In this document: positions 3,694 through 56,288 of the stretch, piece by piece | Numbering within the stretch: position 1 is the first letter of the stretch | How the letters are laid out: the number at the start of each line of letters is the position of its first letter | DNA from: a virus | Length of the DNA: 64,000 nucleotides | Reading direction: 5' to 3' (one strand) | IMG/VR virus record: IMGVR_UViG_3300044658_000141 | Location: 39,077 to 103,076 of that record | Notes under the pieces: model-generated | Databases searched by the model: none | Told to the model about the DNA's origin: nothing | What the model saw: only the letters and a program-made list of their open reading frames with translations | Made by a program: the position numbers and the translations under genes

Positions 3694-3769
3694 TGGATTG
3701 CCTGGTAGGACTCGAACCTACAGCGCCTGCAGTATTCCGGCAGTGCTCTACCATTGGAGCTACAGGCAA
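3694..3769 (-). tRNA. 76-nt tRNA-like gene, nominal anticodon AAU, non-canonical anticodon arm (possible pseudo-tRNA)
   Basis: Cloverleaf: TTGCCTG/CAGGCAA acceptor stem, GCTC-CAATGGTA-GAGC D arm, GTAGG-TTCGAGT-CCTAC T arm, encoded CCA (then a second CCA). Anticodon loop GGAATAC lacks U33; C31-U39 mismatch. Extended -10 TGCTATACT just upstream. Confidence 0.8.
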
Positions 3770-22422: not shown

Positions 22423-22839
22423 ATGAAGAGGGAAAAGCGCCGGATCGATCGCTACTACCGCTCCAACAATAATGTGTATTTCGCTTGCTTCTATCATATC
22501 GTCTGGTGTCCTAAGTACCGAAAAAGAGTGCTCATAAACGGAATAGAACAGCGAGCGGAACAGATCATTAGGGGAGTATGTCAGGAGAGGCAAGCCTATA
22601 TCGTGGCACTTAAGGTCATGCCTGATCATATCCATATGCTTGTAAGTGTTGATCCTCAGTTCGGAGCCCACCAACTGATTAAGCTCATGAAAGGACGATC
22701 TTCATTTCTACTGAGAAAGGAGTATCCACACTTGAAGAAACTGCACTCGCTCTGGACGAACAGTTACTTTATTTCAACGGTAGGCAAACCAACTATGGAT
22801 GTTGTTAAGCGTTATATCGAGAACCAAAGAGATGTCTAA
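22423..22839 (+). CDS. tnpA: IS200/IS605 Y1 (HUH) transposase
   Basis: YHIVWCPKYR, DHIH (HUH), LKLMKGRSS, LWTNSYF, catalytic YIENQ. Confidence 0.95.
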   Translation: MKREKRRIDRYYRSNNNVYFACFYHIVWCPKYRKRVLINGIEQRAEQIIRGVCQERQAYIVALKVMPDHIHMLVSVDPQFGAHQLIKLMKGRSSFLLRKEYPHLKKLHSLWTNSYFISTVGKPTMDVVKRYIENQRDV

Positions 22840-24103
22840 CAAAGCATACAAATTCAGGTTATACCCGACGAGGAAGCAGATCGCTTCCCTGCAATGGACT
22901 TTGAACCGTTGCAGGGAGCTTTATAACGCTGCTTTGCAAGAACGCAAGGAGGCATATAAGTATGCCAAGAAGTCCATCAGCAAGTTTGAGCAGATGCGCG
23001 ATCTAACCATTATCCGCAACGAAATCAGGACAGAGTATCAGGAGATTGGTAGTCATGTCCTGCAAGATGTCATTAAGCGAGTGGACAAAGCCTATCAAGC
23101 TTTCTTTCGTCGGGTCAAGAACGGAGAGAAGCCAGGCTATCCCCGATTTCAAAATGAGGGTCGCTATTGCAGTTTTACCTATCCTGACCTTCAAATGTGG
23201 GACTTAGAAGGCAACAAAATCCATCTCCACAAAATCGGTAGTATCAAAATCAAGCTCCATCGAGAAATTGCAGGCAAAGTGAAAACAGTAACCATCAAAC
23301 GAGAGGGAAAGCACTGGTACGCGGTTTTTAGTTGCGATCTGGAAGGGGTTAATGAACAGCGAACCCCGTACACCGATGACGCCATAGGGGTAGACCTCGG
23401 GTTGCACCACTTTGCAGCATTGTCCTCTGGGGACATCATTGATAATCCCCGCTACTATCGGACCTCTGAGGCAAAGTTGATCAAAGCTCAAAAAGTCTTG
23501 GCCCGCAAACAAAAGAAAAATCAGAAAACCGGATGCAAGGGCAATCGGCGCAAGAAGGCTATTCAACGGGTCGCCAAACACCACCGCAAGATCAGGAACC
23601 AGCGTCAGGACTTCTTACACCAGTGGTCCCGCAGGTTGGTAGACACCTATGAAACGATAGTCTTTGAAGATCTGGCTCCATCAAAGATGAGTAAAGCTCC
23701 CCGACCCAAACAGGACGAAGAAACCGGGCAATACTTACCTAACGGAGCCAGTATCAAAGCTGGACTGAACAAAAGCATACTCGACGCGGGTTGGTCCACT
23801 TTTATCTCCATGTGTGAACACAAGGCAGCATGCGCCGGTGTCGTGCAGGTGGTGAAAGTGGACCCGTATAAAACCAGTCAAGTATGTAGCGGATGTCTCC
23901 ACGAAGGACCGCATAAGGACTTGAGTGAGCGGGTTCATACCTGTCAAGAATGCGGCCTTGTAATCGACAGAGATGTCAACGCAGCGGTAAATATCCTGGC
24001 TGTGTCACAAGGTTTGAACTTGCGTCCTGAGAAGAAAACGAAAAGAGCCCGGGCTCGGACGGAGCCTGCAGAGGACGCGCCTCTGCGAAGCCCCCGGCTT
24101 TAG
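22832..24103 (+). CDS. tnpB: RNA-guided endonuclease TnpB
   Basis: YKFRLYPT; RuvC residues GVDLG / VFEDL / DRDVNAA intact; CxxC..CxxC zinc finger. Confidence 0.95.
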   Translation: MSNKAYKFRLYPTRKQIASLQWTLNRCRELYNAALQERKEAYKYAKKSISKFEQMRDLTIIRNEIRTEYQEIGSHVLQDVIKRVDKAYQAFFRRVKNGEKPGYPRFQNEGRYCSFTYPDLQMWDLEGNKIHLHKIGSIKIKLHREIAGKVKTVTIKREGKHWYAVFSCDLEGVNEQRTPYTDDAIGVDLGLHHFAALSSGDIIDNPRYYRTSEAKLIKAQKVLARKQKKNQKTGCKGNRRKKAIQRVAKHHRKIRNQRQDFLHQWSRRLVDTYETIVFEDLAPSKMSKAPRPKQDEETGQYLPNGASIKAGLNKSILDAGWSTFISMCEHKAACAGVVQVVKVDPYKTSQVCSGCLHEGPHKDLSERVHTCQECGLVIDRDVNAAVNILAVSQGLNLRPEKKTKRARARTEPAEDAPLRSPRL

Positions 24104-37665: not shown

Positions 37666-38112
37666 TCATTTGTCAACTATATTCCACCCTAGTTGATCTA
37701 TAGTCATTGCTGGGAGCTGCTTTTCCTCTCTTAAGAGATTAAAGGCAGTGAATAGCTTGTCAGCAGTCTCTTGGCTAATAGGTTTTCCTGAAAATGCATT
37801 CCATACAGTTGTTTGTGATACACCAGCCCGATTAGCTATCTCCAATCTGTTAACACCAGTACCAGCAATGCCTCTCTTTTCTCTAGTGGTGGGATTGCCC
37901 TTCTTAGGATATATCTTTAATTGCTCAACATCTTTAGGTAGAAAGAAATTAGCGCCTCCTACCGTCTCAACTGGCTTAAGCCTTCCTGCATAAACCATTC
38001 GATTAACGCCTATGTTTGTATAGGTACGTATTCCGTTAGATCGTTTAGTTAGTATTTCAGCAACTTCTTTACTGGAAAGAAGCTTGCCGTGTGTCTCTGA
38101 GATAATTGCCAT
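37666..38112 (-). CDS. Double-HTH DNA-binding protein
   Basis: N-terminal MerR/HTH_17-like (LSSKEVAEIL...GRLKP) and C-terminal XRE-like (EIANRAGVSQTTV). Confidence 0.65.
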   Translation of the reverse strand: MAIISETHGKLLSSKEVAEILTKRSNGIRTYTNIGVNRMVYAGRLKPVETVGGANFFLPKDVEQLKIYPKKGNPTTREKRGIAGTGVNRLEIANRAGVSQTTVWNAFSGKPISQETADKLFTAFNLLREEKQLPAMTIDQLGWNIVDK

Positions 38113-38152
38113 TGTAAACCTGCCTTCCTTTTTGTGTTCAAACATACTCGGT

Positions 38153-38393
38153 TGCTGTGAATACTCAGCACATCGCACGGGATCGCCCGTGTATGCCCCT
38201 AGCCGGGGAAGATACCGCTTCCAGGTTCCAATGGAAGCAAAAGCCGTGAATGCGGCTTAGTGGCGCATGTACGCTGCCTTTTGCGATGATCCGCTGTGAT
38301 GGATTTCGGTTGCACCGTCAGCCGACTTGCCAGAGTTCGCTACGCTCTGATGTGTGAACTCCGCACACATTCGGGTACTTTTGAGTACCTTTT
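38153..38393 (+). ncRNA. Candidate structured RNA: chain of 11 short stem-loops ending in hairpin+U-tract
   Basis: Back-to-back inverted repeats; G-T wobble pairs occur on the + strand in five stems; see findings. Confidence 0.5.
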
Positions 38394-38605
38394 CAATCAC
38401 AGTTTAACCCTCCTTATTGGCAATGATTTGACATTAACATAGTGACACACTACATTAATTTTATTAAATAGTCAATATCTGGCCTTAAACCTATTGACAA
38501 ATGATTAGTGACATGTTATACTTGCCCTTGTGAGGCAGCATAAGCATCGTAGTAGTTTAGCGTCGTGGTGGGATTTCGGCTTCACCACGGCATAAGAGAA
38601 GAGAC

Positions 38606-39250
38606 ATGAGTATCACTGAAAAGACAAATGAACGTCTCGCCCGTATCCACTCAGCATTACAGGCTCAGGACTGGATACCTGAAGCCATGTATGATGAGGC
38701 TCAACACATCACTATGAATGCGTGGGCATTGATGGTAGCGAATGAGATTAAACGAAGAAGTCTTGAGAGGAGAGTAGCGTAATGCAAGGATACATCTACG
38801 AGCATGGGCAATGGTGGAAAATTGAGGTGACAGGACCGTTTAAGACCGATGGGCAGTCCTGTTTTGAGTGGGCAGAGTCCTACTATCCTCCTGAACAGCG
38901 TGTCGTATGGGAGAAGTTGACCAAGCAAGAACAGGCTGAATGGGAACAAATAGCGAGAGAAGTGGAGGAAATTGTCAATGGCTAATTCCTGTCCATTTTG
39001 CCCGATCATGGGCATTGATGAGAGTGAGTACCGGAATATCGAACAGACATTTTATGGTGAACAAGCAAATGTTGAAGGTATTCTCTGCTGTGATCCATGT
39101 ATGCAAGTGATATATATGTGTGGCGTTGCTGAACATATTCTCTGCCTGGCAAAGCATCTAGGCATCGTTATCACTCAGGATATGGACATCTCACAGGTAA
39201 CAGATGCCGTACAGAAACACCGGCAGGAGCTAGTGCGAAGGCAGGGTTAA
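38606..39250 (+). CDS. Three small coupled genes (38606-38782, 38782-38985, 38978-39250); last one truncated by the tnpB remnant
   Basis: TAATG-type coupling behind the promoter at 38494. Confidence 0.5.
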
Positions 39251-39574
39251 ATCGAAGCATCCTTGACGCGGGGTGGAGTCAATTCGTCACATTTTGCGAG
39301 TACAAGGCTGAGAGCGCTGGTACTCAGGTGGTACGAGTTGACCCGTACAAAACCTCGCAAGTGTGCTCAAGTTGTGGCGTCGAAGGACCACACAAGGACC
39401 TCTCAGAACGCACACATACCTGTACCAGTTGTGGAGTGGTTCTGGATCGAGATCACAACGCTGCGATAAACATCAAAAACATTTGGCTTGGACGGAGCCT
39501 ACGCAAGACGAAGCGGGTACGTTCCGTTGCGTAACTACGTGAAGCCCCTGGATTTATCCATGGGGAGTCGTCAC
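39226..39574 (+). pseudogene. tnpB: 3' fragment of tnpB plus intact IS200/IS605 right end (omegaRNA scaffold)
   Basis: GASAKAGLNRSILDAGWSQF...DPYKTSQVCSSC...DRDHNAA, homologous to 22832-24103; right-end hairpin GCCCCTGGATTTATCCATGGGG-AGTCGTCAC. Confidence 0.9.
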
Positions 39575-55004: not shown

Positions 55005-56288
55005 AAACCGGCGCGGGAAAGCCCCCGTCTTTCAAGCGGGGGATGAAAGCGCCGCTCCTTTCGGGCTGGCTGGGTAGAGTGGGATAGTACCACACCACAG
55101 GATTTTAAGCTGCATTTGACAATTTGCTTAAAATCTGCTAGACTAGCCACATGATCAAAAACTTTCAGTACCGAATTTATCCAACAAAGAAGCAGTTGAA
55201 GAAGCTTGAGGCAACCCTTGAGGAGTGCCGATGGCTCTACAATCATCTGCTTGAAACGCGCAAGAATGCCTATGAGCAGACCGGGGAAAGCTTGTCTTGC
55301 TATCAACAGCAAGCCACCTATTCGAGACTGAAAGAACAACGTCCCTCCCTCAAAACAGTTCATTCCCAGGTCCTGCAGAACGTTGCCGTCCGCATCGATC
55401 TGGCTTTCAAAGCCTTCTTCAGGCGATGTAAGAGCGGAGAAAAACCCGGCTTCCCTCGTTTTCGTGGCAAGAACCGCTACGATAGCTTCACCTTCCCCCA
55501 GAGTGGCTTTAGTATCACGCATGACGACCGGGTCTGCCTCTCCAAGATTGGCAGCGTGAAGATGGTCTACCACCGTGAGATCAAGGGAAAGATCAAGACC
55601 TGTACCATCCACAAAAGCAGTACCGGCAAGTGGTATGTCTCCTTCTCGGTAGAATGTGAACCTGAACGGCTGCCAGAGTGCTCTCTCCAAGTGGGTATTG
55701 ACGTAGGGCTCAAAACCTTTGCCACCCTCTCGACTGCTGAAGAGATCGAGAATCCTCGGTTCTTTCGCAAGGAAGAGAAAGCACTGGCTAAGGTCCAGCG
55801 CAAGCATTCTAAGCTTGCCAAAGGGACCCCAGAACGCCGGAAGCACCGTAAGGTAGTAGCCCGCGTTCATGAGCGTATCAAGTTCAGGCGTGAGAACTTC
55901 ACCCATCAGAATAGCCGTCAGATTGTCGATCATTTTGGCGTGATCTGCGTCGAGGACCTGACCGTTAATCGTATGGTACACAATCATTGTCTTGCGAAAA
56001 GCATTGCAGATGCCTCGTGGTCGGCATTCTTTGAGCAACTCTCTAGCAAAGCGGAAGAGGCTGGCAGAGTCGTTGTCAAAGTCAATCCAGCCTACACAAG
56101 CCAGACGTGCAGCCAGTGCGGACACCGGCAAAAGATGCCGCTCTCCGAGAGGATATTCGATTGTCCGTGCTGTCATTTGCATCTGGATCGAGACCTCAAT
56201 GCTTCTCTAAACATTCTGGCTCTGGGACTACAGAGCCTCGGTAACCAATCCGTAGAAGCCCCCGATCTTCAGTCGGGGGAGTAGTCAC
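55005..56288 (+). mobile_element. Non-autonomous IS1341-like element (tnpB only)
   Basis: Left hairpin AAGCCCCCGTCTTTCAAGCGGGGGA (~55019); right hairpin AAGCCCCCGATCTTCAGTCGGGGGA-GTAGTCAC ending 56288. Left boundary approximate. Confidence 0.85.
55151..56284 (+). CDS. tnpB: RNA-guided endonuclease TnpB
   Basis: FQYRIYPT; RuvC GIDVG / VEDL / DRDLNAS intact; zinc finger. Confidence 0.95.
   Translation: MIKNFQYRIYPTKKQLKKLEATLEECRWLYNHLLETRKNAYEQTGESLSCYQQQATYSRLKEQRPSLKTVHSQVLQNVAVRIDLAFKAFFRRCKSGEKPGFPRFRGKNRYDSFTFPQSGFSITHDDRVCLSKIGSVKMVYHREIKGKIKTCTIHKSSTGKWYVSFSVECEPERLPECSLQVGIDVGLKTFATLSTAEEIENPRFFRKEEKALAKVQRKHSKLAKGTPERRKHRKVVARVHERIKFRRENFTHQNSRQIVDHFGVICVEDLTVNRMVHNHCLAKSIADASWSAFFEQLSSKAEEAGRVVVKVNPAYTSQTCSQCGHRQKMPLSERIFDCPCCHLHLDRDLNASLNILALGLQSLGNQSVEAPDLQSGE

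What the first reader, a model, noticed from the sequence alone, without database searches (positions are those of the whole stretch)
38153..38393. Chain of 11 sequence-unrelated hairpins packed back to back
Seen: stems at 38153-70, 38176-91, 38196-208, 38217-38, 38241-58, 38260-77, 38289-304, 38306-25, 38331-49, 38350-70 and 38373-90, mostly separated by 0-8 nt. Five stems use G-T pairs that work only on the + strand, and the last is followed by TTTT like a terminator. The opposite strand holds a 47-aa ORF (GTG 38400 to 38257) with an AAGGAGG RBS, upstream of a double-HTH gene. No sequence repeat explains this. Inference: an undescribed ~240-nt ncRNA (protein sponge, Cas-subunit decoy or antisense regulator) or an ssDNA structure.
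Basis: seen in the sequence. Interest (0 to 1): 0.7.

Follow-up and report, generated by a model that had tools for sequence, protein, structure and literature searches.

The report
Gene-less TnpB guide-RNA mini-transposon
The chain of hairpins is a 290-base, gene-less relative of TnpB jumping genes, wedged between the ribosome-binding site and start codon of a phage regulator gene; its hairpins are real and conserved, but it is a known kind of selfish element, not a new RNA class.

Summary
All 11 hairpins are present and they are not chance. They form a conserved fold, with many compensatory changes and a pseudoknot, shared by more than 20 homologous copies in Ktedonobacterales genomes.

The interpretation needs correcting. 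The unit spans window 38120-38409 and most probably reads on the MINUS strand.

- Its 3' ~105 nt are homologous to the 3' end of tnpB plus the right end of full-length TnpB elements in those genomes. That is where the guide (omega/re) RNA is encoded. At least one such element carries an IS607-type serine recombinase.
- The unit itself carries no tnpB.
- Two filled/empty site pairs in host genomes (groES, sodA) show scarless insertion directly after the Shine-Dalgarno core AAGGAG and before the spacer and start codon.
- AAGGAG contains the published AGGAG TAM of IS607 TnpBs (Ren et al. 2024).
- The right end brings a replacement Shine-Dalgarno. In 40 of 44 copies a start codon follows within 45 nt (median 8-9 nt).

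In the phage it splits AAGGAG|GTTTACA-ATG of the double-HTH gene. That also explains the "AAGGAGG RBS + 47-aa ORF", which is not conserved.

I found no link to Csf2/type IV-B and no conserved + strand terminator. Earlier notes of this scan describe similar RBS-splitting IS607/TnpB elements and guide-RNA-only minis in other phages. Verdict: new member of a known kind, moderate interest.

The parts
38120..38409 (-). Whole mini-element: 290 nt, no tnpB or tnpA. Left end at 38409, right end at 38120 (...AAGGAAGGCAG).
   Evidence: Homologous over its full length to TnpB-less copies in Ktedonobacterales genomes. Boundaries are inferred from two filled/empty site pairs in host genomes.
38410..38415 (-). 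AAGGAG (CTCCTT on the + strand): the original Shine-Dalgarno of the HTH gene and the TAM-like target motif next to the left end.
   Evidence: Empty sites read ...AAGGAG|spacer-start and filled sites ...AAGGAG|element|spacer-start. The published TAM of IS607 TnpBs is 5'-AGGAG.
38120..38224 (-). 3' module (helices Pk 38153-70, Pj 38176-91, Pi 38196-208, plus tail). It is homologous to the last ~105 nt of tnpB and the right end of full-length elements, i.e. the guide-RNA scaffold region.
   Evidence: In L058, L049, L047, L052, L013 and others, TnpB ORFs (Pfam OrfB_IS605 + Cas12f1-like_TNB) run through this module as ...DRDENSAVN..ARLGPHTGDPVRCA... A tblastn hit of the TnpB tail falls on window 38164-38235(-).
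38225..38409 (-). 5' module specific to the mini-elements (helices Pa 38373-90, Pb 38350-70, Pc 38331-49, Pd 38306-25, Pe 38289-304, Pf 38260-77, Pg 38241-58, Ph 38217-38).
   Evidence: Found in 20 of 169 genomes of the order, never next to tnpB. Covariation in most helices.
38284..38317 (-). Pseudoknot: the loop of Pd (38313-38317) pairs with 38284-38288, just 3' of Pe.
   Evidence: Three pairs covary with several pair types: GC 8/AU 6; CG 5/UA 4/GC 4; CG 8/GC 2/GU 2/AU 1.
38123..38130 (-). Replacement Shine-Dalgarno AAGGAAGG carried by the right end, 10 nt upstream of the HTH start codon.
   Evidence: Read from the sequence. In 40 of 44 family copies a start codon opening a long ORF follows the right end, median spacer 8-9 nt.
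38100..38119 (-). Predicted guide portion of the RNA (GTTTACAATGGCAATTATCT): the flank directly 3' of the right end, covering the HTH start codon.
   Evidence: Inference from the known layout of TnpB omega/reRNAs, scaffold followed by a 16-20 nt guide beyond the right end. Not tested.
37666..38112 (-). Double-HTH regulator gene (148 aa) whose ribosome-binding site is split by the element.
   Evidence: Pfam and PHROGs give weak HTH hits. Homologues start at the same Met. A 69%-identical homologue in metagenome contig L002 has no such element upstream.
38257..38400 (-). 47-codon ORF behind the displaced Shine-Dalgarno; probably not a gene.
   Evidence: No family hits. Read by eye from the copies printed, the ORF length varies (9 codons in L059, 19 in L068, 35 in L010, 39 in G004, about 70 in L061). 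Against L010, 13 of 16 differing codons are non-synonymous.

Best explanation
Window 38120-38409 (minus strand) is a non-autonomous, TnpB-less miniature element of a TnpB/omegaRNA transposon family. The family is IS607-type: one full-length relative carries a serine-recombinase TnpA. It is abundant in Ktedonobacterales (Chloroflexota), the probable host lineage.

**Shown:**
- Its 3' ~105 nt are homologous to the tnpB 3' end and right end of full-length elements.
- The whole 290 nt is homologous to gene-less copies in many genomes.
- The hairpins are a conserved, covarying fold with a pseudoknot.
- Family members sit scarlessly between the AAGGAG Shine-Dalgarno and the start codon of a gene.
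- The right end carries a new Shine-Dalgarno.

**Inferred:**
- In the phage it inserted into AAGGAG|GTTTACA-ATG of the HTH regulator gene.
- It is transcribed on the minus strand as the leader of that gene.
- The RNA is an omega/reRNA-type scaffold whose 3' guide is the flank GTTTACAATGGCAATT...
- A cognate TnpB supplied in trans by the host would use it to cut element-free alleles (AGGAG TAM + guide), so the element is retained or copied. The phage's own TnpBs are only about 28% identical to that TnpB family.
- The right-end Shine-Dalgarno keeps the HTH gene translatable.
For: **Dispersed copies.** Two sub-stretches occur in many unrelated soil-metagenome contigs at 3-8 times the phage's depth. 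An 18-mer led to Ktedonobacteraceae/Chloroflexia MAGs. Copies were found in 17 of 61 and 20 of 169 genomes of the order.

**Link to tnpB.** TnpB ORFs run into the 3' module. A Resolvase-domain TnpA lies upstream of one of them.

**Gene-less relatives.** No TnpB motif lies within 1.5 kb of the minis. Two near-identical copies with different flanks in one genome point to recent mobility.

**Structure**.
- 84.8% of cells are paired, against 36-44% when partners are slid.
- 32 pairs change on both sides, against 13-19 slid.
- Covariation score is 0.299 against at most 0.119; 0 of 500 shuffles reach it.
- The pseudoknot covaries.

**Strand.** G-U on the element's sense strand versus A-C is 54:26 in conserved pairs, and 4:1 in the window copy.

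**Insertion site.** Two filled/empty pairs were found. A start codon follows the right end in 40 of 44 copies. AGGAG is the TAM of IS607 TnpBs, whose reRNAs have stem-loops and pseudoknots (PMC11061315). Gene-less PATE-like elements that encode omegaRNAs used in trans are described (10.1101/2023.03.14.532601).
Against: - No RNA data exist for this phage, so neither transcription nor strand is shown.
- Thermodynamics do not pick a strand. The window copy folds 9 kcal/mol better on the + strand; the family mean difference is only -2.7 kcal/mol; alifold energies are about equal on both strands.
- Only the 3' ~105 nt match full-length tnpB elements. The 5' ~185 nt are mini-specific and of unknown origin. 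Similarity to the left end of one full-length element is weak (z = 4.7 for one copy, 0-2 for the others).
- No Rfam family, RAGATH-18 included, matches.
- No element-free allele of this phage was found, so the insertion site in the phage is inferred from host loci.
- No cognate TnpB is encoded in the 103-kb record, which is about 80% complete.
Confidence: 0.8

Rival explanations
1. Exapted cis-regulatory leader. The element now serves the phage as a long structured 5' UTR of the HTH (repressor-like) gene. It would stabilise the mRNA or tune translation through the short upstream ORF and the right-end Shine-Dalgarno, independently of any TnpB. This can coexist with a transposon origin.
For: - It lies in the divergent regulatory region, between a weak minus-strand promoter-like site and the HTH start and opposite two strong + strand promoters.
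- Family copies sit in the 5' UTRs of highly expressed genes such as groES, dnaK, sodA and ilvC and are evidently tolerated.
- The mini-specific 5' module is conserved by covariation although it is not needed for a minimal guide scaffold.
Against: - The same element precedes functionally unrelated genes. The placement is therefore explained by the AGGAG target motif rather than by shared regulation.
- The HTH homologue in L002 lacks it.
- No ligand- or protein-binding motif is known, and Rfam gives nothing.
Confidence: 0.25
2. One reading: an independent ~240-nt + strand ncRNA ending in a terminator, acting as a protein sponge, a Cas/Csf decoy or an antisense regulator of the HTH leader.
For: This copy folds better on the + strand (z -3.8 versus -2.0; 7 versus 1 G-U pairs). 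A phage type IV-B csf module lies about 8 kb away, according to an earlier first-reader note that I did not check.
Against: - No + strand promoter-like site lies upstream.
- The terminal T-run is not conserved.
- In conserved pairs wobbles favour the other strand.
- The family is collinear with tnpB and always co-oriented with the downstream gene.
- Homologues occur in bacterial genomes, in front of housekeeping genes such as groES, dnaK and sodA rather than beside a csf module in the loci I read.
Confidence: 0.05
3. Single-stranded DNA structure. The hairpins would be transposase recognition hairpins of an IS200/IS605 (Y1 TnpA) PATE, or a replication/packaging signal, rather than an RNA fold.
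For: - IS200/IS605 ends use subterminal DNA hairpins.
- The phage encodes a Y1 TnpA at 22423-22839.
- Watson-Crick covariation alone cannot tell DNA from RNA.
Against: - The only full-length relative with a visible transposase has a serine recombinase. IS607 elements lack palindromic ends and move as double-stranded DNA.
- Eleven to twelve helices and a covarying pseudoknot far exceed what Y1 TnpA needs.
- The homologous 3' module is the known guide-RNA region of tnpB elements.
Confidence: 0.07
4. The 47-aa ORF (38400-38257) encodes a small protein, and the hairpins are incidental to it.
For: Good Shine-Dalgarno spacing. The first 12 codons (MIEKVLKSTRMC) are shared with some relatives.
Against: - Read from the copies, the ORF length varies from 9 to about 70 codons.
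- Most codon differences from L010 are non-synonymous, and compensatory stem changes alter the peptide.
- No family hits.
Confidence: 0.03

Closest known systems
IS607-family TnpB elements with reRNA/omegaRNA and 5'-AGGAG TAM (ISFba1 type; Ren et al., Cell Res 2024, PMC11061315)
   Same: - The target motif deduced from two empty sites is (A)AGGAG.
- Insertion is scarless, with no target-site duplication.
- The guide-RNA region overlaps the tnpB 3' end and the right end.
- The RNA has several stem-loops and a pseudoknot.
- One full-length relative carries a serine-recombinase TnpA.
   Different: - The window element has no tnpB.
- Its RNA is not recognised by Rfam's models, RAGATH-18 included.
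- The related host TnpB matches ISDra2 TnpB best among solved structures.
- The RNA is about 290 nt, against a 187-nt scaffold.
PATE-like gene-less IS200/IS605 elements that encode omegaRNAs used in trans (Meers et al. 2023, 10.1101/2023.03.14.532601)
   Same: A gene-less miniature that keeps the transposon ends and the guide-RNA region, is multi-copy in genomes, and depends on TnpA and TnpB supplied in trans.
   Different: Classical PATEs belong to Y1-transposase elements with subterminal DNA palindromes. This family looks IS607-type, and it carries an extra ~185-nt conserved structured module not seen in its full-length relatives.
IStrons (IS605/IS607 elements fused to a group I intron; Zedaveinyte et al., 10.1101/2023.11.20.567912)
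   Same: A TnpB-family element that lowers the cost of sitting inside a transcription unit. The guide RNA and host gene expression compete for the same transcript.
   Different: There is no group I intron signature (no Rfam hit; the 5' junction follows G, not U). The cost appears to be offset by a built-in Shine-Dalgarno rather than by splicing.
Earlier notes of this scan on other phages (e1-5942805, e1-5942798, e1-5401882)
   Same: IS607-type TnpB elements, or guide-RNA-only minis, wedged between a Shine-Dalgarno and a start codon in phage genomes.
   Different: Those are different genomes and sequence families. They are AI notes that I did not re-test. This one is tied to a Ktedonobacterales repeat family and has the extra 5' module.

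Membership tests
TnpB/omegaRNA (OMEGA) transposon, non-autonomous derivative | Sequence homology of the element's 3' part to the tnpB 3' end and right end of bona fide TnpB elements | tested here: met
   Window 38120-38220 aligns at 75-88% identity with the ends of elements whose ORFs hit OrfB_IS605 and Cas12f1-like_TNB.
TnpB/omegaRNA (OMEGA) transposon, non-autonomous derivative | No tnpB or tnpA inside the element | tested here: met
   The 290 nt hold only a non-conserved 47-codon ORF. No TnpB motif lies within 1.5 kb of 25 mini loci, whereas positive controls were found.
TnpB/omegaRNA (OMEGA) transposon, non-autonomous derivative | Scarless insertion next to a fixed adjacent motif (TAM), without target-site duplication | tested here: met
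   Met for host copies: groES (L068 filled; L083, L085 empty) and sodA (L061 filled; L089, L090 empty). For the phage copy this is inferred only, since no empty allele was found.
TnpB/omegaRNA (OMEGA) transposon, non-autonomous derivative | Multiple copies in different contexts (mobility) | tested here: met
   Two near-identical ~430-nt copies with unrelated flanks in G004. Copies in 20 of 169 genomes.
TnpB/omegaRNA (OMEGA) transposon, non-autonomous derivative | Conserved RNA secondary structure with covariation and a pseudoknot | tested here: met
TnpB/omegaRNA (OMEGA) transposon, non-autonomous derivative | The RNA is expressed, bound by TnpB, and guides DNA cleavage next to the TAM | not testable with these tools
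   No RNA run is available for this DNA.
IS607 family (serine-recombinase TnpA) | Serine-recombinase TnpA in full-length relatives | tested here: inconclusive
   One full-length copy (L058) has a Resolvase-domain ORF ending at tnpB, with a MerR-like N-terminus. The other copies lack a visible transposase.
RAGATH-18-derived reRNA (Rfam) | Match to the Rfam covariance model | tested here: not met
   No Rfam hit at E <= 10 in the window stretch, nor at E <= 1 in 10 family loci.
IS200/IS605 PATE (Y1 TnpA, subterminal DNA palindromes) | Association with a Y1 transposase family and its end hairpins | tested here: inconclusive
   The phage has a Y1 TnpA at 22423-22839. However, no DNA similarity exists between this element and any other part of the phage genome, and the related full-length element uses a serine recombinase.
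Intrinsic terminator on the + strand (38373-38395) | G+C-rich stem followed by a conserved T-run | tested here: not met
   Not called by the scan. The T-run is replaced by TTTCCC or TTTCTGG in relatives.

The most novel reading that the evidence does not exclude
The phage may have co-opted the element in either of two ways.

(a) As a guide-RNA-only drive. Loaded onto a host-encoded TnpB, it would cut co-infecting or competing phage genomes that carry the uninterrupted AAGGAG-GTTTACAATGGCA site. That would be RNA-guided homing or exclusion without encoding the nuclease.

(b) The mini-specific ~185-nt module (helices Pc-Pg plus the pseudoknot) could be a functional RNA in its own right. It is conserved by covariation in about 20 genomes but absent from full-length tnpB elements. 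It might offset the cost of sitting in a 5' UTR or couple translation of the downstream gene to TnpB occupancy.
Probability: 0.15. Interest if true: 0.65.

Novelty: new member of a known kind. Interest (0 to 1): 0.4.

Why it matters
- **It resolves an apparent orphan ncRNA.** The feature becomes a recognisable selfish element, and the report gives its exact anatomy: ends, target motif, predicted guide, fold and pseudoknot.
- **It defines an uncatalogued RNA family.** More than 20 homologues with strong covariation are not in Rfam, so the set could seed a covariance model.
- **It illustrates a general point about this class of transposon.** With an AGGAG target motif, these elements land between the Shine-Dalgarno and the start codon, often of highly expressed genes. 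They carry a spare Shine-Dalgarno that keeps the gene translatable.
- **It points to the host.** The family's distribution suggests Ktedonobacterales as the probable host lineage of an uncultured 103-kb soil phage.
- **It raises a testable idea.** A phage-borne, nuclease-less guide RNA might exploit a host TnpB.

Tried and rejected
- **Rfam.** No gathering-score hit in the whole window; only chance-level hits (E 1.4 and 4.5) in the sensitive scan of 37900-38700. Nothing in 10 family loci.
- **tRNA.** ARAGORN found no tRNA or tmRNA here.
- **BLAST.** The intergenic region has no match in the phage (INPHARED) and plasmid (PLSDB) collections.
- **Repeats within the phage.** No second copy in the phage genome, even with short words.
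- **HTH protein as a handle.**
  - No relatives in viral contigs or genome contigs.
  - Three homologues in the protein database.
  - One metagenome locus (L002) lacks the element.
- **Exact-pattern scans of viral contigs**: no match to pieces of the element and no element-free allele. A family motif gave one chance hit inside a coding region.
- **Sequencing runs.** No RNA holder is listed. Contigs of four soil runs showed no joint that skips the element.
- **Strand by thermodynamics.** Per-copy MFE, alifold on both strands and G-U counts in MFE folds do not discriminate.
- **Left-end similarity.** Minis against the left end of the full-length element L058: weak.
- **Considered and dropped:**
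  - integron attC (no GTTRRRY at the boundary);
  - T-box or riboswitch (near-identical copies before unrelated genes; no Rfam hit);
  - group I or II intron (no Rfam hit; junction nucleotides do not fit);
  - attP/tRNA fragment;
  - REP/BIME-type repeats.
- **Not used.** One unpublished genome (G135, locus L060) matched; it supports no claim here.

Full report
**1. What is in the sequence**

The finding lies in a 490-bp divergent intergenic region.
- To the left, on the minus strand, is a 148-aa double-HTH gene (ATG at 38112).
- To the right, + strand genes start at 38606, behind two strong sigma-70-like promoters at 38428-56 and 38494-522.

All 11 hairpins fold as described. The + strand of 38153-38400 folds at -96 kcal/mol (z = -3.8), the minus strand at z = -2.0. 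In a scan of the whole 103-kb virus record, the stretch ranks 13th of 857 windows on the + strand. Rfam and ARAGORN give nothing, and there is no second copy in the phage.

**2. How relatives were found**

Laying Logan contigs of four soil metagenomes on the region gave the first lead. Two short pieces (about 38120-38180 and 38168-38221) recur at 85-90% identity in many contigs with unrelated flanks, at 3-8 times the phage's depth. Read on the minus strand, each copy is followed a few bases later by a different gene start.

An 18-mer from that piece hit two Chloroflexota MAGs, one a Ktedonobacteraceae bacterium. Whole-genome searches then found copies in 17 of 61 and, for the 5' part, 20 of 169 genomes of that order. 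One matching genome (G135) is unpublished and was not used.

**3. Identity**

In many copies, the stretch homologous to window 38220->38120 (minus strand) is the very end of a 400-510-codon ORF with Pfam OrfB_IS605 and Cas12f1-like_TNB domains.
- That ORF is TnpB. It runs ...CxxCG..DRDENSAVN..ARLGPHTGDPVRCA.. and stops about 20 nt before the conserved end ...GAAAGGCAG.
- A search of the phage genome with that TnpB protein also matches the tail on window 38164-38235(-).
- This is the region where TnpB elements encode their omega/reRNA scaffold, with the guide lying just beyond the right end.
- One full-length copy has a serine-recombinase (Resolvase-domain) TnpA directly upstream, so that copy is IS607-type.

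The window element has no tnpB. Its full 290 nt align with gene-less copies in many genomes: L010, L032/L048, L061, L063-L069, L072, L073, L075, L079, L080, L033-35 and L043. None has a TnpB motif within 1.5 kb. Two near-identical copies with different flanks in one genome indicate recent movement.

Only the 3' ~105 nt are shared with full-length elements. The 5' ~185 nt are specific to the minis. Their resemblance to the left end of one full-length element is weak.

**4. The fold**

- 84.8% of cells pair, against 36-44% when partners are slid.
- 32 pairs change on both sides, against 13-19 slid.
- The covariation score is 0.299 against at most 0.119, and no shuffle of 500 reaches it.

In addition, the loop of the 38306-25 hairpin pairs with 38284-88. 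This pseudoknot covaries through several pair types.

**5. Strand**

Thermodynamics do not decide the strand, and this copy actually folds better on the + strand. Three lines of evidence favour the minus strand:
- In the conserved pairs, G-U on the element's sense (window minus) strand outnumbers A-C by 54 to 26, and by 4 to 1 in the window copy itself.
- The family is collinear with tnpB.
- It is co-oriented with the gene downstream in 40 of 44 copies.

In two host loci (L048, L010) I also read sigma-70-like promoters on that strand upstream of the element (by eye). I put the minus strand at about 80%.

**6. Insertion site**

Two filled/empty comparisons in host genomes give the boundaries.

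| Gene | Empty site | Filled site |
|---|---|---|
| groES | ...AAAGGAG\|TAGACATC-GTG | ...AAGAAGAG\|CGAGAACAG...AAAGGCAG\|TAGACATC-GTG |
| sodA | ...TAAGGAG\|AAATGTTCT-ATG | ...TAAGGAG\|CAGTAAAACAG...GAAAGGCAG\|AGATGTTCT-ATG |

Insertion is scarless, directly after the Shine-Dalgarno core and before the spacer and start codon. The motif matches the published 5'-AGGAG TAM of IS607 TnpBs.

The right end itself ends in a Shine-Dalgarno-like AAGGAAGGCAG or GAAAGGCAG. A start codon follows at a median of 8-9 nt. The genes behind it include groES, dnaK, sodA, ilvC and a metG-like gene.

Applied to the phage, the pre-insertion site would be CAATAAGGAG|GTTTACA-ATG, a textbook ribosome-binding site for the HTH gene. 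The displaced AAGGAG now precedes a fortuitous GTG ORF.

**7. Mechanism, with shown and inferred steps**

Shown: homology, lack of genes, conserved fold, insertion geometry in host genomes.

Inferred:
- The element is transcribed as the HTH leader.
- The RNA is an omega/reRNA whose guide is GTTTACAATGGCAATT...
- A host TnpB of the cognate family acts in trans. The phage's three TnpBs are only 28-32% identical to it and lack the tail.
- That TnpB would cut the element-free allele and so favour retention.
- The right-end Shine-Dalgarno preserves HTH translation.

A purely cis-regulatory exaptation cannot be excluded and is compatible with this origin.

**8. Comparison and novelty**

Gene-less PATE-like elements carrying omegaRNAs, and IS607 TnpBs with an AGGAG TAM, are published. 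Earlier notes of this scan report RBS-splitting IS607/TnpB elements and guide-only minis in other phages. I used them as leads only; one pointed me to the Ren et al. paper after I had derived the motif from the empty sites.

New here are this particular RNA family (absent from Rfam), its extra conserved 5' module with a pseudoknot, and its presence in a probable Ktedonobacterales phage. Verdict: real feature, first interpretation largely replaced, new member of a known kind.

Noticed in passing
window 38428-38522: Two strong sigma-70-like + strand promoters (TTGACA-17-TACATT and TTGACA-17-TATACT). Each overlaps a repeated TAGTGACA motif (38440-52 and 38506-16), which could be an operator for the divergent HTH regulator, as in a phage immunity region.
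   Followed up: partly
window 22423-24103: An apparently autonomous IS200/IS605 element: a Y1 TnpA (22423-22839; Pfam Y1_Tnp, E 6e-40) followed by a full TnpB (22799-24103). This TnpB is only ~28% identical to the TnpB family that owns the mini-element's right end.
   Followed up: partly
window 55151-56284; G000:C1:2418-2873 (outside the window); window 39247-39534: Two further TnpB genes and a C-terminal TnpB remnant (Cas12f1-like_TNB, E 2e-17), the remnant only ~850 bp from the mini-element. The phage is unusually rich in TnpB-family elements.
   Followed up: partly
L010, L012, L014, L073, L075, L080, L032/L048 (host copies): Some copies carry a ~55-90-nt extra hairpin inserted in the loop of the helix equivalent to 38153-38170. 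It has a conserved ..GTAGCGC..CTGAGGCGC.. core. This is a modular expansion of the RNA that the phage copy lacks.
   Followed up: no
L013 (G001:C498): A copy whose tnpB 3' region has a perfect 18-bp inverted duplication across the DRDENS codons (GCTTGGTGATGGACCGCG...CGCGGTCCATCACCAAGC). This looks like a rearranged, probably dead, TnpB.
   Followed up: no
L002 (metagenome contig Ga0070730_10004383): A 69%-identical homologue of the phage HTH protein sits in a higher-GC, bacterial-looking context. Judging from its ORF translations, its neighbours look like GNAT-like, DinB-like and enolase-superfamily genes. It has no mini-element upstream.
   Followed up: partly
window 3694-3769: A tRNA-Ile gene with the unusual anticodon AAT, on the minus strand.
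   Followed up: no
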